A DNA stretch of 64,000 nt, from positions 1 through 64,000 of the IMG/VR virus record IMGVR_UViG_3300046002_003930. One strand, given 5' to 3'. Source of the stretch: a virus (lineage: Duplodnaviria; Heunggongvirae; Uroviricota; Caudoviricetes). Position numbers and translations under genes: made by a program. Shown here piece after piece: positions 2,125-45,595 of the stretch. The first letter of the stretch is position 1; each line of letters starts with the position of its first letter. Below the pieces are notes generated by a model. The model worked only from the letters and a program-made list of their open reading frames with translations. It had not been told where the DNA came from and did not search any database.

Positions 2125-2351
2125 CGGATAGGGTTAACTATTGAGGGTGGGGCCGTCAGTAATGGCCGCTCTACTAATAAAGCGAGAATAGCCTTCTACA
2201 TGGGTCAGGTTCTCGCCACCCCGATAGTTACCACATGAACAGCGGCCCTCCCTCGCACTAAGGGAAACGTGGCTCTGTTGAATGCGCGATAGTGGGGTCG
2301 AACCCGCTCGCCGTTCTTGTGGTAACTATTCTCAAACAAAAAGGAACTAAA

Positions 2352-3654: not shown

Positions 3655-3725
3655 CGCTAAGTCCTTGAATTCATTGAACTTTTGGGGCCCCGCGGAAAAC
3701 CCCTTATATATCAAAGACATAGGTA
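3655..3725. repeat. palindromic element copy 4 (GGGGCCCC 3684-3691)
   Basis: GCTAAGTCCTTGAATTCATTGAACTTTTGGGGCCCCGCGG...CTTATATATCAAAGACAT. Confidence 0.55.
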
Positions 3726-3779
3726 CGGGGTTGGAAAATGCCAGCAAAAACAAACACTTAGCTAACCCATTGATATTGC

Positions 3780-3835
3780 TCACTTTTTTGCAGGGGCCCC
3801 AAAAAGCTAATGAAATCAAGGACTTATTTCAGCTC
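3780..3835. repeat. palindromic element copy 5 (TTTTTGCAGGGGCCCCAAAAAGC; core 3793-3800), plus a partial arm at 3868-3900
   Basis: Near-perfect inverted repeat TTTTTG-GGGGCCCC-AAAAA followed by ATCAAGGACTTAT. Confidence 0.5.
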
Positions 3836-27133: not shown

Positions 27134-27338
27134 TATGGAATCGCCGCTTGACCCTAAGGTCGCCCATCAGATTAAGATGGCAGCAAAAGAAATGCTGCGA
27201 GCTCGACGCTATGAAACGGAGTATAATCCGATTTTGTATATTCCAGCAAATCTGAGCGCAAACCATCCAGATAGTGGTATGTCAATGGCAGACCACGAAA
27301 AGGAAAAAGAAGCAAGGAAAACCCAAAAAAGTTCTTGA
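27134..27338 (+). CDS. hypothetical protein
   Basis: RBS CAGGAGCG then ATG 27134; stop TGA lies inside the -35 TTGACT of the next promoter. Confidence 0.4.
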
Positions 27339-27363
27339 CTTTTTGGGCAGATCTTGCTATTAT
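27335..27363 (+). promoter_or_regulatory. T5-type promoter (TTGACT-17-TATTAT) driving the tmRNA locus
   Basis: AAAAAAGTTCTTGACTTTTTGGGCAGATCTTGCTATTATAAGAG. Confidence 0.65.
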
Positions 27364-27369
27364 AAGAGA

Positions 27370-27760
27370 TAGTCGTAGACGACTGATAAAGGCGTAAAAG
27401 ACGCGAGTTCGACTCTCGCCGCCTCCACCATAAGTCCATCCTAGAGCAGTTCGCGACCTTGCAGGGACAAGATAGCTCGAAAAGATGAAGTCCTGGCTCC
27501 TGCAAGAGTCGAAGCATATCTCCCTGTGGTAAGGGACGGATTCGTTTGGGGCGACGTTCGCTGGCATGGGCCGGTGTAGTGTAAGTATCTGGGTGGCTTT
27601 ATGATGGGGGCGACATGGCATTCGATTTTACGAGAAATAAACAGTAAGAGACTAGTGACTGGCAAAGTGCCATTTTAAATGCAAACGATAATGTTGCGTT
27701 TGAAGATTTCCGCGTAGCGGCTTAATCTTCTTGGGTCCGCGGGTACCTCGAAACAGAAAC
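27370..27760 (+). ncRNA. ssrA: circularly permuted (two-piece-type) tmRNA (ssrA). Acceptor piece about 27370-27430 ends in T-arm/acceptor/CCA; coding piece starts GGGGGCG at 27606; tag ORF 27681-27725 encodes ANDNVAFEDFRVAA-stop
   Basis: T-arm GCGAG-TTCGACT-CTCGC then CGCCTCC-A-CCA (27403-27430). Downstream GGGGGCGACAUGGCAUUCGAUUUUACG resembles the tmRNA 5' end GGGGCUG...GGAUUCGAC. P1 pairing GGGGGCG/CGCCUCC and P2 pairing UUUUACG(27626-32)/CGUAAAA(27393-99). Tag reading frame GCA AAC GAT AAT ... GTA GCG GCT TAA. Confidence 0.7.
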
Positions 27761-27783
27761 CCGTACTTAATTTTAGAGGAAAT

Positions 27784-33139: not shown

Positions 33140-33211
33140 CGTTAGTGCGCTGGGACGCAGCTGAGGCTCATATCTTCGGCGTGGGTGGTTCAATTCCACC
33201 ACTAACGACCA
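33140..33211 (+). tRNA. tRNA-Met or Ile2 (anticodon CAT)
   Basis: Acceptor CGTTAGT/ACTAACG, loop CTCATAT, T-arm GGTGG-TTCAATT-CCACC, CCA encoded. Confidence 0.6.
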
Positions 33212-33275
33212 TCTTAAAAAGTTCTTGACTTTTTGCCTCAAACATCGTATTCTATACTTATAGAAGGAGATTAAA

Positions 33276-35510: not shown

Positions 35511-35801
35511 ATGCTATATCGTTCAGGCGAAGTACAGCGTCTTTTCAAAGATAAGTCTAGTGGAACTATTATTCTGCTAAAACGCGAAAAGGGGAATGCG
35601 CATGATGCTAATGCTATTGCGGTCTACTCAGCCCTAACCCCATCCGGGACTAAGACTTATGAGTGGACTAAAGTCGGCTATGTTGATAAAGAAATTGCCA
35701 GAGAAGAGTTCTATGGATTACCTCTAGATACGGTTCTTGAGTGTACAAAGTACGGCCAAGATACTTTCCAATTGAGTGGAAAAACTAGAGAGTACAAATA
35801 A
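35511..35801 (+). CDS. HIRAN-domain-like protein
   Basis: NAHDANAIAVY...KVGYVDKEIA resembles the HIRAN motif (NpyDpnAI.V...iGYv). Confidence 0.4.
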   Translation: MLYRSGEVQRLFKDKSSGTIILLKREKGNAHDANAIAVYSALTPSGTKTYEWTKVGYVDKEIAREEFYGLPLDTVLECTKYGQDTFQLSGKTREYK

Positions 35802-35847
35802 TATTGATGCTGTTAGGCGCATTTTATAAAGAAAGAAGGTGACTATT

Positions 35848-36015
35848 TTGACCACGTCGCCTAACAGCATCATCACTCCTTGTACATTGATTTGTAAGAT
35901 TGAAGACGGCTGTTGTGTTGGGTGTCTCCGCACCATACCAGAAATTGCTGGCTGGCGTAGAATGTCTGACGAAGAGCGCATCGCAATTATGACCGACTTG
36001 AAAAATAGGTCTTGA
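35848..36015 (+). CDS. small Cys-rich protein, DUF1289-like (TTG start)
   Basis: RBS AAGGTGA then TTG; SPCxxxCxxxxxxCCxGCxRTxxEIxxWxxMSxEER pattern; stop TGA inside next promoter -35. Confidence 0.4.
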   Translation: MTTSPNSIITPCTLICKIEDGCCVGCLRTIPEIAGWRRMSDEERIAIMTDLKNRS

Positions 36016-37025: not shown

Positions 37026-37046
37026 GTTAAGTAAATTATTAATCAT

Positions 37047-37128
37047 ACCCCGTTGGCGGAACGGTAGACGCGCTGCGCTTAGGACGCAGTTCTTAGGAGT
37101 GAGAGTTCGAATCTCTTGCGGGGTACCA
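37047..37128 (+). tRNA. tRNA-Leu (anticodon TAG), class II
   Basis: Acceptor ACCCCGT/GCGGGGT, anticodon stem CTGCG/CGCAG loop CTTAGGA, long variable arm, T-arm GAGAG-TTCGAAT-CTCTT, CCA. Confidence 0.65.
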
Positions 37129-37191
37129 TTAATAATTTAATTCTTGACATAAATCAATATTTTTGGTATACTCTAAAAATGGAGTTACCAT

Positions 37192-38267: not shown

Positions 38268-38537
38268 ATGAAGCAACAATATAAGATCAACACACCGTCA
38301 TGGTACCTCTACAATGGGGTATATGAGGAGTGGAAATCTAAAGGAATGTATGTCCATCGTTATCGCTGGATGCGCAACCCTAGAACACACCTTAATCGTA
38401 AGCGCCTCGCAGCGCACCCAGAGTTTACTCGCGGTAAGCAGCGAAAACTTCCTAGCAACTGGGATGACATGAACCTTTCGTTCAACCATTCCAACTGCTG
38501 GAAACGCTTCACTAAGAAGCGAAAACAACATTCTTAG
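38268..38537 (+). CDS. hypothetical basic protein
   Basis: RBS CAAGGAGGG then ATG; 89 aa, rich in K/R/W. Confidence 0.45.
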   Translation: MKQQYKINTPSWYLYNGVYEEWKSKGMYVHRYRWMRNPRTHLNRKRLAAHPEFTRGKQRKLPSNWDDMNLSFNHSNCWKRFTKKRKQHS

Positions 38538-38578
38538 GCTCCAGACCGCAACTCAATTAGCATTGTAAGCTCGTTGTT

Positions 38579-38635
38579 ATTGGTTCGATTCCAATATCCT
38601 CCACCACTGGGGAGGATTAGCTCAATTGGTAGAGC
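38579..38635 (+). ncRNA. anticodon-less, circularly closed tRNA-like module (T-arm - acceptor stem closed by 8-nt loop - D-arm); Y-RNA (YrlA-type) effector-domain candidate
   Basis: ATTGG-TTCGATT-CCAAT then ATCCTCC-ACCACTGG-GGAGGAT then TA then GCTC-AATTGGTA-GAGC. Acceptor strands perfectly complementary but in 3'-then-5' order; no anticodon arm. Confidence 0.45.
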
Positions 38636-38657
38636 ACGAAAAACAGGAACCTGTATT

Positions 38658-38690
38658 AAAACTCTTGACTTTGAAGCTGAAAGCTTCTAT
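38658..38690 (+). promoter_or_regulatory. T5-type promoter (TTGACT-17-TATACT) upstream of the Ro60-like gene, with a roughly 270-nt leader
   Basis: AAAACTCTTGACTTTGAAGCTGAAAGCTTCTATACTATTT. Confidence 0.55.
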
Positions 38691-38965
38691 ACTATTTAAA
38701 GACTTAGGGATAAGTACTGCACTACATTTATCGCAGGGTAATGCCTGTATTAAGCAAAGTTACTTAAATGTAACCCCACAGGATTTCAGCCGCTGTATAA
38801 ATACGGTTGACAGTAGATCGAGCTGTGTAAAACGATCGACACTATCCCGTACTAATTTAGAATGAAGACTGCAACTCAAAACTAACGGGGTTACCCGTTT
38901 CCAGGCTTGGGTACGCCACGAAAAGGCCCACAACATTCATTCTGTTCATAAAAAGGAAAACTACA

Positions 38966-40441
38966 ATGACCATGACTTTTGCTAACGCGGTTGCGCGTTC
39001 TAACGCTCCTTCGATGGATCGTGGATATACCCGTACCGAAAACGGTATGCGCTCTCTTAAGAGCACTCTTTCCGCGACTGTGGACCTCTTCGGGTCTCTA
39101 ACGCGAGGTAAGAACCTTGTTCCTGCTTTCGAAGCAGCTTTTCAGGAAAACCCTGATGTAGCTATGCGTCTGGCGCAGTATGCGCGTGACGTGCGTGGTG
39201 GACAAGGTGAACGTAAGATTTTCCGTGACTTTATGCTCCACCTTGAGCGTACTCGTCCCGACATTCTGGTGGATTCTAACATTCTGAAGAATGTTGCTGA
39301 AGTTGGTCGTTTCGACGATCTTCTGATCTTCTCTAACCCAGAAGTTAAAGCTGTTGCTTACACGATTGTTGCTAAGGCACTTTCGGAAGGTAACGGACTA
39401 GCTGCAAAGTGGATGCCTCGTAAGGGTGCAATCGCTATCGAGCTACGTAACTTCATGGAGCTTTCGCCTAAACAATATCGTAAGCTGCTAGTTCGGCTGA
39501 CGAATGTTGTTGAAACGCAAATGTGCGCACGCAACTGGAATGAGATTAACTTCTCGCACGTTCCTTCGGTTGCTATGTCGCGCTATATGACTGCGTTCCA
39601 CAAGCGCGCTCCTGAAGCCTTCGCGGCATTCAAGGCTGCCCTAGTTCGTGGCGACAAGGGTGTTAAGGTCAACGCTTCGGCTGTTTACCCACATGAAGTT
39701 GTTAAGCTGGCTGGCGGTGCTATGTCGTGCAACAACTACGGTAGCTATTCTCGTTTCAACGAGTATGGCGCTAAGGCTGAAAACCCAGTAGCCGAAGCTA
39801 TGTGGAAGGCCCTGCCTGACTACATGAACGGCGAAAGCGTTCTAGCTATGATCGACACTTCGGGGTCGATGGAAAGCAATTACTACAATACTTCGGTTCG
39901 TCCTCTGGACGCGGCTGTTTCTATTGGTCTGTATGTTGCTGAGCGTAGCAAGAACCCTGCTTTCCGTAACCTTATCCTTTCGTTCTCTGAGCGTCCGGAA
40001 ATTGTTAAGCTGGAAGGTAGCCTGGCCGCACGCCTGCATAGAATGTCGCAAGTTGCATGGGGTGGAAACACTAACCTGCACGCCGCATTCGATAAGATCC
40101 TAGACGTTGCTGTTAGCAACAACGTTCCAGAGTCTGAAATGCCAGGCACACTGCTAATCCTGTCGGATATGCAGTTTGATTCCTGCGCTCGTTACGATGA
40201 CACTGCTCTGCAGATGATGCGTCGTAAGTACGAAGCCGCGGGCTACACAATGCCTCGCATTGTGTTCTGGAACCTGAATGATAAGGGTGACAAACCAGTT
40301 CGTTTCGGCGAAAATGGAGTTGCTCTAGTCTCTGGCTTCTCGCCAGCAGTCATGAAGTCGGTGCTTGCATCGGACCTTGACAAGTTCACTCCAGAGAGCG
40401 TAATGCTCAAGGCCTTAATGGTCGATCGCTATAACTGGTGA
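38966..40441 (+). CDS. Ro60-like (TROVE-like helical N-region plus C-terminal vWA/MIDAS) RNA-binding protein candidate
   Basis: 491 aa; RBS AAAAGGAAAAC then ATG; C-terminal vWA with MIDAS LAMIDTSGSMES...; alpha-helical N-terminal two thirds; sits in the middle of the tRNA cluster. Confidence 0.5.
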   Translation: MTMTFANAVARSNAPSMDRGYTRTENGMRSLKSTLSATVDLFGSLTRGKNLVPAFEAAFQENPDVAMRLAQYARDVRGGQGERKIFRDFMLHLERTRPDILVDSNILKNVAEVGRFDDLLIFSNPEVKAVAYTIVAKALSEGNGLAAKWMPRKGAIAIELRNFMELSPKQYRKLLVRLTNVVETQMCARNWNEINFSHVPSVAMSRYMTAFHKRAPEAFAAFKAALVRGDKGVKVNASAVYPHEVVKLAGGAMSCNNYGSYSRFNEYGAKAENPVAEAMWKALPDYMNGESVLAMIDTSGSMESNYYNTSVRPLDAAVSIGLYVAERSKNPAFRNLILSFSERPEIVKLEGSLAARLHRMSQVAWGGNTNLHAAFDKILDVAVSNNVPESEMPGTLLILSDMQFDSCARYDDTALQMMRRKYEAAGYTMPRIVFWNLNDKGDKPVRFGENGVALVSGFSPAVMKSVLASDLDKFTPESVMLKALMVDRYNW

Positions 40442-40444
40442 TCA

Positions 40445-40540
40445 AAGATAGCGGAGTCCGATACCTTCCGAGGGTGTCCGGCTCCGCCGTCTCTCGGAAG
40501 TGATACGGTGGCTATAAAGTTATGCCACCTGTCACAATTT
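40445..40540 (+). other. multi-hairpin structured region immediately 3' of the Ro60-like gene
   Basis: GCGGAGTCCG...CGGCTCCGC, TTCCGAG...CTCGGAA, GGTGGC-TATAAAGTTAT-GCCACC. Confidence 0.35.
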
Positions 40541-40630
40541 TGCTCTGCCGAGCTGAACTAGGTGGACGGGCCTGACTGTTAATCAGGATACGCGAGGTTC
40601 GAATCCTCGCGGCAGAGCAAAATTGTGACT
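40531..40630 (+). tRNA. tRNA-Asn (anticodon GTT; body 40544-40617) embedded in a perfect 20-bp extended stem
   Basis: 5' GTCACAATTTTGCTCTGCCG ... 3' CGGCAGAGCAAAATTGTGAC are exact reverse complements; inner cloverleaf has anticodon stem CCTGA/TCAGG loop CTGTTAA and T-arm CGAGG-TTCGAAT-CCTCG; no encoded CCA. Confidence 0.65.
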
Positions 40631-40634
40631 TCAT

Positions 40635-40712
40635 GCACCCGTCGTCTAAATGGAATAGGATACCACACTTTCAATGTGGCAGATGCCGGTTCAAGTCCGG
40701 TCGGGTGTTCCA
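40635..40712 (+). tRNA. tRNA-Glu (anticodon TTC)
   Basis: Acceptor GCACCCG/CGGGTGT, anticodon stem CCACA/TGTGG loop CTTTCAA, T-arm GCCGG-TTCAAGT-CCGGT, CCA. Confidence 0.65.
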
Positions 40713-40717
40713 ACTTT

Positions 40718-40792
40718 GCCTCTATAGTGGTAATGGTAGCACGAGCCCTTGGTATGGGTTTAGTATAAGTTCAATTCTTATTGGAGGCACCA
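40718..40792 (+). tRNA. tRNA-Thr (anticodon GGT)
   Basis: Acceptor GCCTCTA/TGGAGGC, anticodon stem AGCCC/GGGTT loop TTGGTAT, T-arm ATAAG-TTCAATT-CTTAT, CCA overlapping the next ATG. Confidence 0.65.
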
Positions 40793-41034
40793 TGGATAAT
40801 ATTAAGCTATCAGACCAAACTCGTGAGATAGGTAAGCCTTCCAACTGGAATGAAGAAGTTCATGGAAGTTGTATTTCAATATCTGTACATGATCGCCATA
40901 CTTCTATAGGTAACTTTATGGTTACTGGATGGAAACCAACCTGTGGTGAACTAGAAGTTCTTAATCAGGACGGGCATATTTGGTTAGAAATTAACGGGGA
41001 AATTCACCCAGTGATTAAAATCTATGCAGCTTGA
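40792..41034 (+). CDS. hypothetical protein
   Basis: ATG overlaps tRNA CCA end (CACCATGG); 80 aa. Confidence 0.45.
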   Translation: MDNIKLSDQTREIGKPSNWNEEVHGSCISISVHDRHTSIGNFMVTGWKPTCGELEVLNQDGHIWLEINGEIHPVIKIYAA

Positions 41035-41624: not shown

Positions 41625-41690
41625 CAAAATTTAGTTCTTGACTTTGTCCTAAAAGCGTGGCATAATGTTTATCTTAAGTCGGGAAAGCAA

Positions 41691-43619: not shown

Positions 43620-45020
43620 GGATTTGGCAGTATAGTGTCAATAAGGATAAGCACAGTAATGTGCCTAAAGGAAGAATTTCTACATACTTCCGCTAGAAAT
43701 AGTCCATCTATAAAAGCTTAGCTTAGGCCACCCGGAGTTGTCCGTAGGTTGCCCCATCTTCCAAGGTGGTGTATAGTAAGTCGAGTAATTTGCCCGGAAA
43801 CGGATAGGACAGAGCCAATCGGTGAGTCTAATGGAAGTAGCATTTCAGTGAATTCAGCTAAATCGGCGAATATAGAATAGCAATAAGTAGTTATATAGTT
43901 CGATCACGCAAGAAAGAGCATATGGCAGTATAAGCGAAGAAGGTGTAATAGCCCCAACCGTAAAGTACAGTTGAGTAGTCCGCAAGACGAAAGACAGGAG
44001 GTGTGTTGTATATTGTATCTAACAAGATATGAAGCAACAGAAGTAGCACATCTCGGTAGATTCGCAAATTGCAGAAATGGTAAATGCAACAGTTTTAGAT
44101 ACTGTAGATTCTAGGTTCGATCCCTAGTTTGTATAACAAAAGCGAAAGACTACTTCAGTATATTACGAAAGATGCTTAATACCTCACTTATGAATGGGGT
44201 CTTTGATAGCTCGCAAGGCTTGAGAAGTTGCTTGGATAGAGATCGTAAGGGTTTAGCGGCCCTGAACTGCCGGGAGGTAGGCGAAGGATAGAACGGCGAG
44301 TAGTAATGTATGATAGGTCAAAAGCCAGACCTTATAAACGGCAGCATTGAGAGATACTAGATAATTCTAGTGGATAACGGATTAACGTTCGCCCGCAAGC
44401 GAAACGGTACGGTTCAAAGGCTCTCACTAAACGGTGTAATCTCAGCCCGTTTGAAACTGCATAGATAATCTCAAAAGGGCTTATCTATTCAGTTTATATG
44501 AGTTAGGTCGATCAGGGATGACAGCAGCCTCCAAAACTGCCGAGGAGAGTTCGAGTCTCTCAACTCATGCCAATTAACTTAGGCAAGGAAAGTCAGGACG
44601 CTGAGCGGCGTAATTAACCGTAAACGGAGGATGGGCAAGTCTACTCCCGGCAAGGGACGAGGGCCAGATACCCCACCGGCCTAAGTTACAAAATTCGCAG
44701 AAGTACCGAACGCGGGAGGCATCTAGGGTCAGTGAGACGGCCCTAGGGAAAGCTGCCAGTAGGTCCGGAGATTAATTCTCACCTTGCTCTGGCTGCGATA
44801 CTTATTTACTCAACTACCTTGCAGCTGCGGGTCGCAATGTTGAGAACGTCGGGGCAAAACGTAAACCCTTACACCAATTCGCTTCGGGTTACCGACTAGA
44901 TTATAGGCAGGACCAAGCTTTACGTAAGCACCCTATAATAGCATTCGTTCCTGAACGTAAATCAGGTGGTGGAGCTGCCGGAAGGCGGCCTAGCGTCCCC
45001 GCGCTATATCGGGGCAAGTT
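43620..45020 (+). other. about 1.4-kb ORF-free tract inside the tRNA cluster (purine-rich first half, GC-rich second half) with dispersed T-arm-like motifs
   Basis: No plus-strand ORF of 60 aa or more; contains GGTTCGATCCCTAG (44108) and tRNA-Trp; repeated AGTCAGGAC(A/G)GCT motif at 44596 and 45037. Confidence 0.3.
44498..44572 (+). tRNA. tRNA-Trp (anticodon CCA)
   Basis: Acceptor ATGAGTT/AACTCAT, D-arm GTCG-ATCAGGGA-TGAC, loop CTCCAAA, T-arm GAGAG-TTCGAGT-CTCTC, CCA. Confidence 0.6.
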
Positions 45021-45022
45021 TA

Positions 45023-45101
45023 TGCGGAGTGGAGCAGTCAGGACAGCTCGTTTGGCTCATAACCAAAAGGTCGATGGTTCGAATCCATCCTCTCGCACCC
45101 A
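45023..45101 (+). tRNA. tRNA-Met-like (anticodon CAT) with a bulged U in the acceptor 3' strand
   Basis: Acceptor TGCGGAG / CTC(T)CGCA, D-arm GAGC-AGTCAGGACA-GCTC, anticodon stem TTTGG/CCAAA loop CTCATAA, T-arm GATGG-TTCGAAT-CCATC, CCA. Confidence 0.45.
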
Positions 45102-45136
45102 ATCAGAGCAATAACGCTCAACTCATAGGTTACACC

Positions 45137-45595
45137 ATGAAGTACGAAAAAGCAATTGAAGCAATCTTGAAGTCTGCCTCAGACAGCACTGTCTATGTTG
45201 GCTGTGACTCTGTGCGTTTCAAAAAGAACGGTAAGTGGTTTGCAAGATATGCAACCGTTGTTGTTCTACACCACGCTACTCGCAATGGTGGCTCTATCTT
45301 CTCTCATGTTGAAGTTCAACCGGACTACGGTAATATCAAGATGCGAATGATGATGGAAGCCGGATACGCTGTTGAAGCCGCACTTGAAGTTGTGGACTGG
45401 CTTGAAGGTCGGACTATGGAAATTCACCTGGACATTAATCCTAACCCAAAACATAAGTCAAACGTTGCTCTTAAAGAAGCACTTGGCTATGTTCTTGGAA
45501 ATACTGGTATTCAAGCTAAACACAAGCCAGATGCTTGGGCAGCATCACACGCTTCCGATCACTGTGCTAGGCTGAAGCCACTAGTACACGCATAA
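45137..45595 (+). CDS. hypothetical protein (possible RNase H-like fold; weak)
   Basis: ATG 45137 just after the tRNA; ORF-track start 44966 would overlap the tRNA. Confidence 0.4.
   Translation: MKYEKAIEAILKSASDSTVYVGCDSVRFKKNGKWFARYATVVVLHHATRNGGSIFSHVEVQPDYGNIKMRMMMEAGYAVEAALEVVDWLEGRTMEIHLDINPNPKHKSNVALKEALGYVLGNTGIQAKHKPDAWAASHASDHCARLKPLVHA

What the first reader, a model, noticed from the sequence alone, without database searches (positions are those of the whole stretch)
40531..40630. tRNA-Asn capped by a perfect 20-bp terminal helix
GTCACAATTTTGCTCTGCCG (40531-40550) and CGGCAGAGCAAAATTGTGAC (40611-40630) are exact reverse complements. They extend the 7-bp acceptor stem of an otherwise canonical tRNA-Asn(GTT) by 13 bp, and no CCA is encoded.

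A fully base-paired leader/trailer should block normal RNase P / RNase Z maturation. It resembles the long terminal helix of Y RNAs, or a deliberately processing-resistant tRNA-like RNA. It lies immediately 3' of the Ro60-like gene.
Basis: seen in the sequence. Interest (0 to 1): 0.6.

Follow-up and report, generated by a model that had tools for sequence, protein, structure and literature searches.

The report
Phage tRNA-Asn clamped by leader–trailer helix
A phage tRNA-Asn gene is flanked by sequences that pair into a conserved 13-bp extension of its acceptor stem, most likely a built-in processing stem for a real tRNA and not a Y RNA, although it sits beside a Ro60-like gene.

Summary
They enclose tRNA-Asn(GTT) at 40544-40617, which encodes CAA where CCA would be.

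The helix is not chance. In 8 relatives, 7 of the 13 extension pairs change on both sides and 98% of cells stay paired. Among 522 distinct tRNAs from all fetched loci, extensions are 0-5 bp (496) or 9-18 bp (26), with nothing in between. The long class holds only Asn(GTT), Leu(TAG) and His(GTG), plus one unassigned call.

The upstream gene models as a Ro60/TROVE fold. Its likely Y RNA is a YrlA-type RNA upstream, at about 38535-38660. The Asn helix has no Ro-binding bulge or motif. It also occurs where the Ro-like gene is absent, and on tRNA-Leu(TAG) 2 kb away. In three relatives it keeps an encoded CCA inside the helix, with one C unpaired.

Best reading: a genuine pre-tRNA with a leader-trailer processing stem. 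The stem hinders RNase P and probably offers a 20-bp duplex to RNase III. In the window clade its distal 5 nt can pair instead with an upstream hairpin at the end of the Ro-like mRNA.

This is a new variant of a known kind. Function is inferred, not shown.

The parts
40531..40543 (+). 5' leader arm of the leader-trailer helix (GUCACAAUUUUGC). The distal 5 nt (GUCAC, 40531-40535) form a sequence-conserved box. The proximal 8 nt covary with the trailer.
   Evidence: Searches give the exact complement. Searches show 7 of 13 pairs changed on both sides in 8 relatives. One search shows the box also closes the upstream hairpin.
40544..40617 (+). tRNA-Asn(GTT), 74 nt up to the discriminator G73. The anticodon loop is CUGUUAA and the T-loop GGUUCGAAUCC. 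It has A8 and a 3-bp D stem, and no CCA is encoded.
   Evidence: ARAGORN. Rfam tRNA 46.4 bits. The body is conserved and all four stems covary. It is the only tRNA-Asn in the window.
40618..40629 (+). 3' trailer arm (CAAAAUUGUGAC). Together with G73 (40617) it pairs with 40531-40543. CAA stands where CCA would be.
40500..40535 (+). Upstream hairpin 'C' (GUGAUAC-GGUGGC...GCCACC-U-GUCAC). Its closing pairs GUGA:UCAC use the same GUCAC box as the leader arm, so the two helices exclude each other over 5 nt. The hairpin is followed by AAUUUUGC.
   Evidence: Folding of the nascent versus the full transcript in 9 relatives. The hairpin is conserved, with a covarying inner stem, in 9 loci. The simple scan does not call it a terminator.
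40450..40500 (+). Conserved structured 3' UTR element. Stem A is AGCGGAGUCCG (40450-40460) with CGGCUCCGCC (40479-40488). A loop segment CUUCCGAG (40465-40472) is complementary to CUCGGAAG (40493-40500), so a pseudoknot is possible.
   Evidence: Stem A covaries in L163, L164, L168 and L170. No Rfam match.
38966..40441 (+). Ro60-like protein gene, 491 aa, with DUF2828 + DUF7788/vWA domains.
   Evidence: Pfam. AlphaFold2 model, pLDDT 76. Top Foldseek PDB hits are phage phiLo Ro60 9kop (E 9e-8, TM 0.56-0.59), D. radiodurans Rsr 2nvo and Xenopus Ro 1yvp. Homologues in 711 phage records.
38535..38660 (+). YrlA-type Y RNA-like RNA, the probable RNA partner of the Ro60-like protein. It has a terminal stem UAGGCUCC/GGAACCUG, a T arm, an acceptor-like hairpin and a D arm.
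   Evidence: Rfam YrlA 37.7 bits, E 5e-6, below the gathering score of 69. Conserved upstream of the gene in relatives.
38665..38693 (+). Sigma-70-like promoter (TTGACT-17-TATACT) ahead of the Ro60-like gene. Between the gene's stop codon and tRNA-Asn no promoter-like site is called, so co-transcription is inferred.
40635..40792 (+). tRNA-Glu(TTC) 40635-40712 and tRNA-Thr(GGT) 40718-40792, both with encoded CCA and no flank helix. tRNA-Glu starts 5 nt after the trailer arm.
37029..37142 (+). Second example in the window: tRNA-Leu(TAG) 37047-37128 enclosed by an A/U-rich leader-trailer helix that includes the encoded CCA (C74 and C75 unpaired).
   Evidence: inverted repeat I4, 24 nt, 88%. (fold); in 9 of 11 relatives the helix is kept with unrelated sequences and a constant C75 mismatch.

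Best explanation
This is a genuine tRNA-Asn gene. In its precursor, the 5' leader and 3' trailer pair into a leader-trailer helix that lengthens the acceptor stem to 20 bp, or about 25 bp stacked on the T stem.

Proposed mechanism:
1. Transcription from the promoter at 38665-38693 runs through the Ro60-like gene into tRNA-Asn, tRNA-Glu and tRNA-Thr.
2. While only the leader has been made, its GUCAC box closes the upstream hairpin (40500-40535).
3. Once the trailer is made, the more stable leader-trailer helix forms.
4. That helix hides the RNase P site and the 3' end, so the tRNA cannot mature by the ordinary route.
5. The helix is a two-turn perfect duplex, the substrate type of RNase III. 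A staggered RNase III cut in the extension would separate three products at once: the Ro-like mRNA, a short-tailed pre-tRNA-Asn, and the downstream tRNA precursor. The freed leader of the mRNA would snap back into the upstream hairpin followed by a U-rich tail.
6. RNase P, 3' exonucleases and the CCA-adding enzyme then finish the tRNA.

Shown: the helix, its covariation, the intact tRNA features, and the alternative pairing (as a fold prediction). Inferred: co-transcription, the RNase III cut, CCA addition, and use of the tRNA in translation.
For: - The helix is under selection. Of 13 extension pairs, 7 have double changes and 98% of cells are paired, against about 40% in slid controls. G-U pairs occur only in the tRNA-sense strand.
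- It is a discrete class. Of 522 distinct tRNAs, 496 have 0-5 bp extensions and 26 have 9-18 bp, with none at 6-8 bp.
- The body looks like a real tRNA. It passes ARAGORN and Rfam, has an invariant CUGUUAA anticodon loop, G73 in the window clade, and covarying acceptor, D, anticodon and T stems. It is the only Asn tRNA in a 29-tRNA array.
- L162, L168 and L081 carry CCA at positions 74-76 inside the helix, with one C unpaired.
- The same design is found on tRNA-Leu(TAG), with CCA and a constant C75 mismatch in 9 of 11 relatives, and on tRNA-His.
- The helix persists where the Ro-like gene is absent: L187 at the syntenic position, and L185/L186 within the fetched flanks.
- Leader-RCCA pairing is a measured anti-determinant for bacterial RNase P (PMC9433436).
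- The predicted fold switches from upstream hairpin to leader-trailer helix in window, L161, L162, L168, L170 and L172.
- The window holds other long intergenic duplexes (3658-3826, 35792-35885), compatible with general use of duplex processing signals.
Against: - There are no RNA-end data, so no nuclease has been shown to act here.
- No RNase III or CCA-adding enzyme was found among the window's ORFs of 150 aa or more. Host enzymes have to be assumed.
- The helix has decayed or is absent in L164/L165, L174 and L175, so it is dispensable in some lineages.
- A8 instead of U8 and a 3-bp D stem are atypical, although other tRNAs of this phage also lack U8.
- An RNase III cut in a helix that includes the acceptor stem risks damaging the tRNA.
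- A test for a stable hairpin always preceding helix-bearing tRNAs was not significant (p = 0.37). The mRNA-end switch is therefore specific to the window clade, not general.
Confidence: 0.5

Rival explanations
1. The helix is an ordered-processing clamp that works without RNase III. It is an RNase P anti-determinant on the 5'-most tRNA of a sub-cluster. Downstream tRNAs are cut first. Cleavage at the 5' end of tRNA-Glu leaves a short 3' tail. Exonucleases then erode the trailer arm, the helix unzips, and only then does RNase P mature tRNA-Asn. This would enforce 3'-to-5' processing and protect the upstream RNA or the 5' end of the transcript.
For: - Helix-bearing tRNAs are the first of their sub-cluster: Asn-Glu-Thr, Leu(TAG)-Leu(TAA), and His followed by a Y-like RNA.
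- In several relatives the leader arm starts a few nucleotides after a promoter, so the helix contains the 5' end of the primary transcript.
- In E. coli, leader structure on the 5'-most tRNA and inhibitory trailers are thought to enforce directional RNase P processing (discussion in PMC9433436; PMC4176162 listed).
Against: - A perfect 20-bp duplex is unlikely to escape RNase III in a cell that has it. This rests on established knowledge of RNase III and was not tested here.
- Exonucleases stall at stable duplexes, so a 13-18-bp G/C-containing helix is a severe block, not a delay.
Confidence: 0.2
2. The helix-capped RNA is a Y-RNA-like ligand, or a dedicated substrate, of the neighbouring Ro60-like protein. 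Either the terminal helix docks on the protein as in Y RNAs (the Yrn1 topology, with the tRNA-like domain on top of the terminal stem), or the Ro-like protein, a Y-like RNA and host PNPase are needed to chew through the duplexed trailer.
For: - The gene lies directly upstream of the Asn tRNA, helix-bearing or not, in 14 close relatives; 11 of them have the helix.
- The protein has a Ro60 fold.
- Bacterial Y RNAs contain tRNA-like domains. In D. radiodurans Yrn1 the terminal stem occupies the acceptor position (PMC4201824).
- A phage Ro60 forms complexes with Y-like RNAs and host PNPase (PMC12135203).
- The distal GUCAC/GUGAY box is conserved in sequence.
Against: - The helix has no bulge and no GNCGAA-type motif.
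- Rfam YrlA does not hit it but does hit the RNA upstream of the gene.
- The Y-like RNAs of these loci share UAGG...CCUGU ends, which the Asn helix lacks.
- The same helix type sits on tRNA-Leu(TAG) far from the gene. In L187, and in L185/L186 within the fetched flanks, it occurs without the gene nearby.
- Conservation of the box is explained by its double pairing duty.
Confidence: 0.15
3. The RNA is a stable tRNA-shaped decoy that never matures. It would have no CCA and sealed ends, cannot be charged, but would still present a tRNA-Asn anticodon arm, for example to soak up an anticodon nuclease or a modification enzyme.
For: - The window form has a perfect helix and CAA in place of CCA.
- The anticodon loop is invariant.
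- Asn and His, two of the three helix-bearing species, share the GUN anticodons that colicin E5-type nucleases cleave. This is from memory and was not tested.
Against: - CCA is kept in L162, L168 and L081 at the cost of a mismatch.
- G73 identity is kept in the window clade.
- It fills the only Asn slot of the array.
- Leu(TAG) does not fit the GUN idea.
Confidence: 0.05
4. The inverted repeat acts at the DNA level, for example as a protein-binding palindrome, a recombination or homing site, or a cruciform, and the RNA pairing is incidental.
For: - HNH endonuclease genes are inserted exactly after the GUCAC box in L163 and L164.
- TGTGA/TCACA resembles common operator half-sites. This is from memory.
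Against: - Compensatory changes keep pairing over all 13 positions.
- G-U pairs (GU at 4:103, 9:98, 10:97; UG at 11:96) would be C-A mismatches on the other strand or in DNA.
- The arms are 59 nt apart around a tRNA, and arm sequences differ completely between Asn, Leu and His.
Confidence: 0.05

Closest known systems
Leader-trailer (processing-stalk) helices of bacterial rRNA operons, cleaved by RNase III
   Same: Sequences on the two sides of a stable RNA pair into a long duplex that encloses the whole RNA. The duplex is conserved by covariation, and the precursor must be opened by an endonuclease before the ends are trimmed. PMC10250234 (listed) treats the 16S leader-trailer helix.
   Different: Here the enclosed RNA is a single 74-nt tRNA and the duplex continues directly out of its acceptor stem. 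The helix is 12-18 bp, not tens of bp. RNase III cleavage is inferred, not shown.
MALAT1-mascRNA leader-trailer interaction (PMC8457004)
   Same: A tRNA-shaped unit lies at the 3' end of a longer RNA. The leader pairs with the trailer to extend the acceptor stem. After cleavage the leader re-pairs with an upstream element that stabilises the new 3' end. The same two-state pairing is predicted here for the GUCAC box.
   Different: MALAT1 is eukaryotic and mascRNA is not a decoding tRNA. There the extended stem with one bulged A promotes RNase P cleavage. Here the helix is perfect and much longer, which should hinder bacterial RNase P. The upstream element is a plain hairpin, not a triple helix.
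Bacterial Y RNAs with tRNA-like domains: YrlA (Rfam RF02553) and D. radiodurans Yrn1 (PMC4201824)
   Same: A long stem is formed by the 5' and 3' ends, a tRNA-like module sits on top, and the gene is encoded next to a Ro60 homologue. The Yrn1 topology (stem at the acceptor position, then D, anticodon-like and T arms) matches.
   Different: There is no Ro-binding bulge or GNCGAA motif and no YrlA model hit. The RNA is a complete standard tRNA with a true anticodon loop and G73. Relatives keep CCA. The helix also occurs without the Ro-like gene and on other tRNAs. A separate YrlA-type RNA is present upstream.
RNase P anti-determinants: pairing of the leader N(-1) to N(-3) with the 3' RCCA, and the tRNA-His G(-1):C73 pair
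   Same: Pairing across the cleavage site extends the acceptor stem and must be unwound by RNase P (PMC9433436).
   Different: The known cases involve 1-3 bp. Here 12-18 bp are paired, and in the window clade the CCA has been given up (CAA) to make the helix perfect.

Membership tests
tRNA (Rfam RF00005), elongator tRNA-Asn | Cloverleaf with a 7-bp acceptor stem and D, anticodon and T arms, scoring above the curated threshold | tested here: met
   Rfam 46.4 bits against a gathering score of 29. ARAGORN tRNA-Asn(gtt). All four stems covary in 8 relatives.
tRNA (Rfam RF00005), elongator tRNA-Asn | 7-nt anticodon loop with U33, GUU anticodon and a purine at 37; T-loop GGUUCGAAUCC; G18 G19 | tested here: met
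   The loop CUGUUAA is invariant in the alignment, and the T-loop and GG are present.
tRNA (Rfam RF00005), elongator tRNA-Asn | Discriminator G73, an AsnRS identity element in E. coli (established knowledge) | tested here: met
   G73 in window, L161, L162, L166, L168 and L170-L173. A73 in L001, L081 and L187.
tRNA (Rfam RF00005), elongator tRNA-Asn | 3' CCA end, either encoded or added | tested here: inconclusive
   Not encoded in the window (CAA). Encoded at positions 74-76 in L162, L168 and L081. Post-transcriptional addition cannot be tested here.
tRNA (Rfam RF00005), elongator tRNA-Asn | U8 and a 4-bp D stem | tested here: not met
   A8, and a 3-bp D stem with an A13-A22 mismatch. Several other tRNAs of this phage also lack U8, so this weighs little.
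tRNA (Rfam RF00005), elongator tRNA-Asn | A mature, aminoacylated form exists | not testable with these tools
   Needs tRNA-seq or an acid gel from infected cells.
Y RNA / YrlA (RF02553) / Yrn1 | 5' and 3' ends pair into a long terminal stem | tested here: met
   20-bp terminal helix.
Y RNA / YrlA (RF02553) / Yrn1 | Ro60-binding module: a bulged or internally looped helix with a conserved 5'-strand motif (GNCGAAN0-1G in bacteria; PMC4201824) | tested here: not met
   Perfect duplex with no bulge and no CGAA.
Y RNA / YrlA (RF02553) / Yrn1 | Match to the family covariance model | tested here: not met
   Only the tRNA model matches 40544-40617. YrlA matches 38556-38663 instead.
Y RNA / YrlA (RF02553) / Yrn1 | Encoded next to a Ro60 homologue | tested here: inconclusive
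   True for the window and 10 close relatives. In L187 (syntenic spot) and L185/L186 the helix-bearing tRNA-Asn has no Ro-like gene in the fetched flanks.
Y RNA / YrlA (RF02553) / Yrn1 | Bound by the Ro60 protein | not testable with these tools
   Needs RIP, CLIP or EMSA.
RNase III processing stalk (rRNA-type leader-trailer helix) | Leader and trailer of a stable RNA form a duplex of about two helical turns | tested here: met
   20 bp perfect; 12-18 bp extensions plus the 7-bp acceptor stem in relatives.
RNase III processing stalk (rRNA-type leader-trailer helix) | Duplex maintained by compensatory evolution | tested here: met
RNase III processing stalk (rRNA-type leader-trailer helix) | Cleaved by RNase III with staggered cuts | not testable with these tools
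   No RNase III gene was found among window ORFs of 150 aa or more. The host enzyme is assumed.
MALAT1-mascRNA-type 3'-end module | The leader pairs alternatively with the trailer (before cleavage) and with an upstream stabilising element (after cleavage) | tested here: met
   Computational only. The MFE structure switches between the nascent and the full transcript in 6 loci. The GUGAY:RUCAC closure of the upstream hairpin is conserved in 9 loci.
MALAT1-mascRNA-type 3'-end module | A single bulged nucleotide just 5' of the RNase P site | tested here: not met
   No bulge in the window. CCA-bearing relatives have a C75 or C74 mismatch instead.
Intrinsic terminator (hairpin 40500-40535 plus U tract) | G+C-rich hairpin directly followed by a U-rich tract | tested here: inconclusive
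   The hairpin is -17.3 kcal/mol and is followed by AAUUUUGC. It is not called by the consensus scan, which requires 5 T in 8.

The most novel reading that the evidence does not exclude
The helix-clamped pre-tRNAs (Asn, Leu-TAG, His) are the natural clients of the phage Ro60-like protein. Their duplexed 3' trailers cannot be removed by ordinary exonucleases. The phage therefore brings a Ro60-like ring plus Y-like RNAs to recruit host PNPase and thread the trailer, a RYPER-like machine. If so, phage tRNA supply would depend on, and be timed by, a viral Ro60-like RNP. That would be the first defined physiological substrate class for a phage Ro60 homologue, and a 'Y RNA built from a real tRNA' topology.
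Probability: 0.15. Interest if true: 0.8.

Novelty: new variant of a known kind. Interest (0 to 1): 0.5.

Why it matters
Phage tRNA arrays are usually read as simple strings of ready-made tRNAs. Here three particular isoacceptors of one phage lineage carry a discrete, covarying 12-18-bp leader-trailer helix. In one clade the encoded CCA has been given up for it. That implies a maturation route different from the textbook RNase P plus exonuclease pathway, and possibly ordered or timed release of these tRNAs.

The helix sits in a locus dense with unusual RNAs: a Ro60-like gene, Y-like RNAs, a GOLLD RNA and a two-piece tmRNA. This gives a concrete, testable handle on what phage Ro60-like proteins do.

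On the practical side, tRNA finders report these genes as ordinary tRNAs and miss the feature.

Tried and rejected
- Megablast of 38400-41000 against cultured phages found nothing. The distant search hit only a tRNA-Glu-like stretch in Cellulophaga phages. No cultured relative is available.
- Sequence and profile searches of the Ro-like protein against the PDB found nothing significant. Only the fold comparison worked.
It was redone with database homologues.
- A literature search for DUF2828 found nothing relevant. No paper was found describing leader-trailer helices on phage tRNAs.
- Ro-binding motifs (GNCGAA, bulged helix) were looked for in the Asn helix and are absent. Faint similarities between the trailer (AGCAAAA, CUGUGAU) and the Y-like RNA motifs (ACAGCAAA, CCUGU) were judged unconvincing, because they lie on the opposite strand of the stem and are base-paired.
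- The idea that every helix-bearing tRNA is preceded by a stable hairpin or terminator was tested and was not significant (p = 0.37). In many relatives the Leu helix follows a promoter instead.
- The idea that L185 is a composite 'tRNA within a tRNA' (a D-arm-like hairpin just upstream of the helix) was examined and dropped. No matching T arm or acceptor strand was found.
- A8 as evidence against tRNA function was dropped, because other tRNAs of the array also lack U8.
- Seven cultured phages with the Ro-like gene were checked (RSP15, S13, BUCT-ZZ01, vB_OspM_OC, phiN3, phiAS5, BUCT194). None has a tRNA with a long uninterrupted flank helix.
Full report
**1. The observation.** The window has GTCACAATTTTGCTCTGCCG at 40531-40550 and its exact reverse complement at 40610-40629. 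ARAGORN and Rfam place tRNA-Asn(GTT) at 40544-40617, at 46.4 bits against a threshold of 29. The helix is therefore the 7-bp acceptor stem plus 13 further pairs. The first extra pair is C(-1):G73. The bases after G73 are CAA, not CCA.

The 111-nt region folds at -51.4 kcal/mol, against -28.9 +/- 3.1 for shuffles (z = -7.2). Of the 29 tRNA calls in the window, 27 encode CCA and have at most 1 bp of uninterrupted flank pairing. The only other CCA-less call (44061-44137) lies inside a GOLLD RNA.

**2. The neighbourhood.**
- The 491-aa ORF at 38966-40441 ends 102 nt before the tRNA. It carries Pfam DUF2828 + DUF7788/vWA. Sequence searches of the PDB found nothing.
- An AlphaFold2 model (pLDDT 76) matches Ro60/TROVE structures best and over its full length. 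The top hits are phage phiLo Ro60 9kop (E 9e-8, TM 0.56-0.59), D. radiodurans Rsr 2nvo and Xenopus Ro 1yvp. 'Ro60-like' is therefore justified.
- Homologues occur in 711 cultured-phage records, often inside tRNA arrays.
- Upstream of the gene, Rfam's YrlA model hits 38556-38663 (37.7 bits, E 5e-6, below the gathering score). This RNA is conserved in relatives. It has a terminal stem UAGGNNCC/GGNNCCUG, a T arm, an acceptor-like hairpin and a D arm.
- A sigma-70-like promoter follows it at 38665-38693. None is called in the spacer between the gene's stop codon and tRNA-Asn.
- The window is a phage replication and tRNA region: PolA, DnaB-like helicase, primase, PhoH, ThyX, NAD ligase and a PNKP phosphatase. 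It also carries a permuted, alpha-type tmRNA, which points to an alphaproteobacterial host.

**3. Relatives.** No cultured phage is close. IMG/VR and metagenome scans and exact-protein look-ups of database homologues gave a graded series from 93% to 57% protein identity.
- tRNA-Asn(GTT) follows the Ro-like gene in all of them. The flank helix is present in 11 loci: window, L161, L162, L166, L168, L170-L173, L001 and L081. The contigs of L082 and L084 end inside the tRNA but have the same kind of leader.
- The arm sequences differ while pairing is kept. Examples are gtcacggctttgc/gcaaagctgtgat (L166), atcacagatttgc/gcaaatctgtgat (L170) and ttcataattaagt/acttagttatga (L001).
- On an 8-sequence alignment, the extension has 13 pairs, 7 of them with changes on both sides, and 98.1% of cells paired. 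Controls with the 3' partner slid by 1-3 columns give 37-44%. This is as good as the tRNA's own stems.
- G-U pairs occur in the tRNA-sense strand only, so the selected structure is RNA.

**4. A discrete class, not restricted to this tRNA or this gene.**
- For 522 distinct tRNAs from all fetched loci, I measured how far pairing continues beyond the acceptor stem, allowing one mismatch. The result is 0-5 bp for 496, 9-18 bp for 26, and nothing in between.
- The 26 are Asn(GTT) (14), Leu(TAG) (9), His(GTG) (3) and one unassigned call.
- tRNA-Leu(TAG), 2 kb upstream of the Ro-like gene, has a 13-16-bp helix that includes its encoded CCA, with C75 always unpaired. Its arm sequences are completely different in 9 of 11 relatives. 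The window copy (arms 37029-37052 and 37119-37142) has C74 and C75 unpaired.
- An independent pattern scan of IMG/VR for this tRNA-Asn lineage found helix-bearing, CCA-less copies in L185/L186 (14 bp, perfect) and L187 (13 bp with one mismatch). No Ro-like gene lies in their fetched flanks. In L187 the array order Pro, Leu, Leu, Tyr, His, Asn is kept, but only 540 nt separate His and Asn, so the gene is absent at the syntenic place.
- Conversely, L164/L165, L174 and L175 have the gene and a tRNA-Asn with no helix or a decayed one.

**5. Real tRNA or mimic?**
- The anticodon loop CUGUUAA, the T-loop and G18 G19 are invariant. G73 is kept in the window clade, and all four stems covary.
- It is the only Asn tRNA of a near-complete array.
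- Most telling, L162 and L168 carry a different tRNA-Asn body between the same flanks, and L081 carries the window-type body. All three have CCA at positions 74-76 inside the helix, at the price of one unpaired C. Keeping CCA there is pointless unless the RNA is cut back to a mature tRNA.
- The window form differs by what looks like a C75-to-A change. That change makes the helix perfect and leaves CCA to be added enzymatically.
- A8 and a 3-bp D stem are unusual, but other tRNAs of this phage also lack U8.

**6. A second pairing partner.**
- In the window clade the distal box of the leader (RUCAC) is conserved in sequence. It is also complementary to a GUGAY just upstream, and with it closes a hairpin (40500-40535, -17.3 kcal/mol). 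The inner stem of that hairpin covaries in 9 loci.
- Folding the transcript up to the leader gives this long hairpin. Folding through the trailer gives the leader-trailer helix and a shortened hairpin. This holds in window, L161, L162, L168, L170 and L172.
- The box thus has two partners, which explains why it does not drift.
- After a cut at or near the tRNA 5' end, the upstream RNA would end in a stable hairpin plus AAUUUUGC. That is the shape of a terminator-type mRNA 3' end.
- This parallels MALAT1. There the leader pairs with the mascRNA trailer before RNase P cleavage and with an upstream element afterwards (PMC8457004).
- It is not general, however. Many Leu(TAG) helices follow a promoter directly, and a test for stable upstream structure was not significant.

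**7. Mechanism.** For E. coli RNase P, pairing of only N(-1) to N(-3) with the 3' RCCA is an anti-determinant that has to be unwound (PMC9433436). Since a mature tRNA is evidently needed, something must open the helix.
- The simplest candidate is RNase III. The helix is a perfect two-turn duplex (20 bp, about 25 bp stacked on the T stem). Its length is narrowly distributed, and it resembles the leader-trailer stalks of rRNA operons. One staggered cut would release the upstream mRNA, a short-tailed pre-tRNA and the downstream tRNAs. RNase P, exonucleases and the CCA-adding enzyme would finish. I give this 0.5. Within that, the claim 'genuine tRNA with a processing helix' is much firmer than 'RNase III'.
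- The main alternative (0.2) is an ordered-processing clamp that is unzipped from the 3' side after the next tRNA has been cut out. This fits the fact that the helix-bearing tRNAs are the first of their sub-clusters.
- A Y-RNA-like role or a Ro-dependent substrate (0.15) is not excluded. It lacks the defining Ro-binding module and the strict linkage to the gene.
- A never-matured decoy (0.05) and a DNA-level element (0.05) are unlikely.

**8. Comparison and novelty.** The element works like an rRNA-type leader-trailer helix and, in the window clade, like the MALAT1-mascRNA module. It shares the topology of Yrn1-type Y RNAs but fails their defining features. I found no description of such helices on phage or bacterial tRNAs in the searched literature. 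I rate it a new variant of a known kind, of moderate interest. Interest would be high if the helix-clamped precursors turn out to be the clients of the phage Ro60-like protein.

Noticed in passing
window 43998-44448 (+): GOLLD RNA (Rfam RF02032, 171.8 bits against a gathering score of 150) inside the tRNA array. The CCA-less 'tRNA-Leu(tag)' call at 44061-44137 is embedded in it.
   Followed up: partly
window 27331-27767 (+): Permuted, two-piece tmRNA of alphaproteobacterial type (RF04321 86.8 bits; RF01849 69.3 bits; ARAGORN tag peptide ANDNVAFEDFRVAA). It suggests an alphaproteobacterial host. The one bacterial genome hit for this tRNA-Asn lineage is a 20-tRNA array in a Hoeflea MAG (L189).
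   Followed up: partly
window 38535-38660; L001 2267-2367; L081 1530-1630; L083 about 990-1095; L166 about 2240-2400; L174 2255-2345; L177 (RSP15) about 1460, 2230, 2620 and 2730: A family of Y-like RNAs with shared ends (5' UUUAGGNNNN..ACAGCAAA, 3' NNNNCCUGUAU) lies next to Ro-like (DUF2828) genes, with up to three per locus. Some have the permuted YrlA order (T arm, hairpin, D arm). Others contain a complete standard-order tRNA-like cloverleaf with a CUUUUAA or CUUCUAA loop and are miscalled as tRNA-Lys or tRNA-Arg. All score below Rfam's YrlA gathering threshold.
   Followed up: partly
window 40450-40500: Conserved structured element right after the Ro-like stop codon. It is a covarying stem (40450-40460 with 40479-40488) whose loop segment CUUCCGAG (40465-40472) is complementary to CUCGGAAG (40493-40500), so an H-type pseudoknot is possible. 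No Rfam match.
   Followed up: partly
L163 3503-3825; L164 4494-5258: An HNH homing-endonuclease gene is inserted exactly after the RUCAC leader box. In L164 the tRNA-Asn behind it is a different 86-nt gene with a hairpin in the variable region, encoded CCA and no flank helix, and it overlaps the HNH ORF end. This looks like endonuclease-driven replacement of the tRNA.
   Followed up: partly
L081 1442-1518; L003 2187-2262; L187 13120-13195: tRNA-His(GTG) with a 12-13-bp leader-trailer helix, U at -1 (no encoded G-1) and C73, followed directly by a Y-like RNA.
   Followed up: no
window 2223-2330, 3658-3826 and 35792-35885 (+): Three further long closing helices (13-22 bp) around 38-101-nt interiors in apparently intergenic DNA. 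The one at 2223-2330 encloses two hairpins, one of them T-arm-like (z = -5.3). They could be more processing duplexes or unrecognised small RNAs.
   Followed up: partly
window 33211-33230, 37129-37172, 38665-38693, 41625-41666; many relatives: A recurrent extended promoter motif AGTTCTTGACTT, followed 17 nt later by a TATAAT-like hexamer, lies directly after tRNAs and Y-like RNAs. The array therefore seems to be cut into many short transcription units.
   Followed up: no
L178 (Cronobacter phage S13) 7857-8099: Two annotated over-long 'tRNAs' (121 and 113 nt, tRNA-Ser and tRNA-OTHER) lie just downstream of the Ro-like 'RNA-binding protein' gene. ARAGORN does not call them. They may be Y-like or other structured RNAs.
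   Followed up: no
window 44966-45595 (+): An ORF with an RNase H-like DUF458 domain (PF04308, E 9e-20). The listed reading frame overlaps tRNA-Met at 45023-45101, so the true start is probably further downstream.
   Followed up: no
window 40544-40617 and relatives; L183-L189: This tRNA-Asn lineage has a D arm (A/G8, GCCGAACAAGGUGGACGG) that resembles class II tRNAs (Leu, Ser, Tyr) more than ordinary tRNA-Asn. Exact-pattern scans found it only in viral contigs and in one alphaproteobacterial tRNA array.
   Followed up: partly
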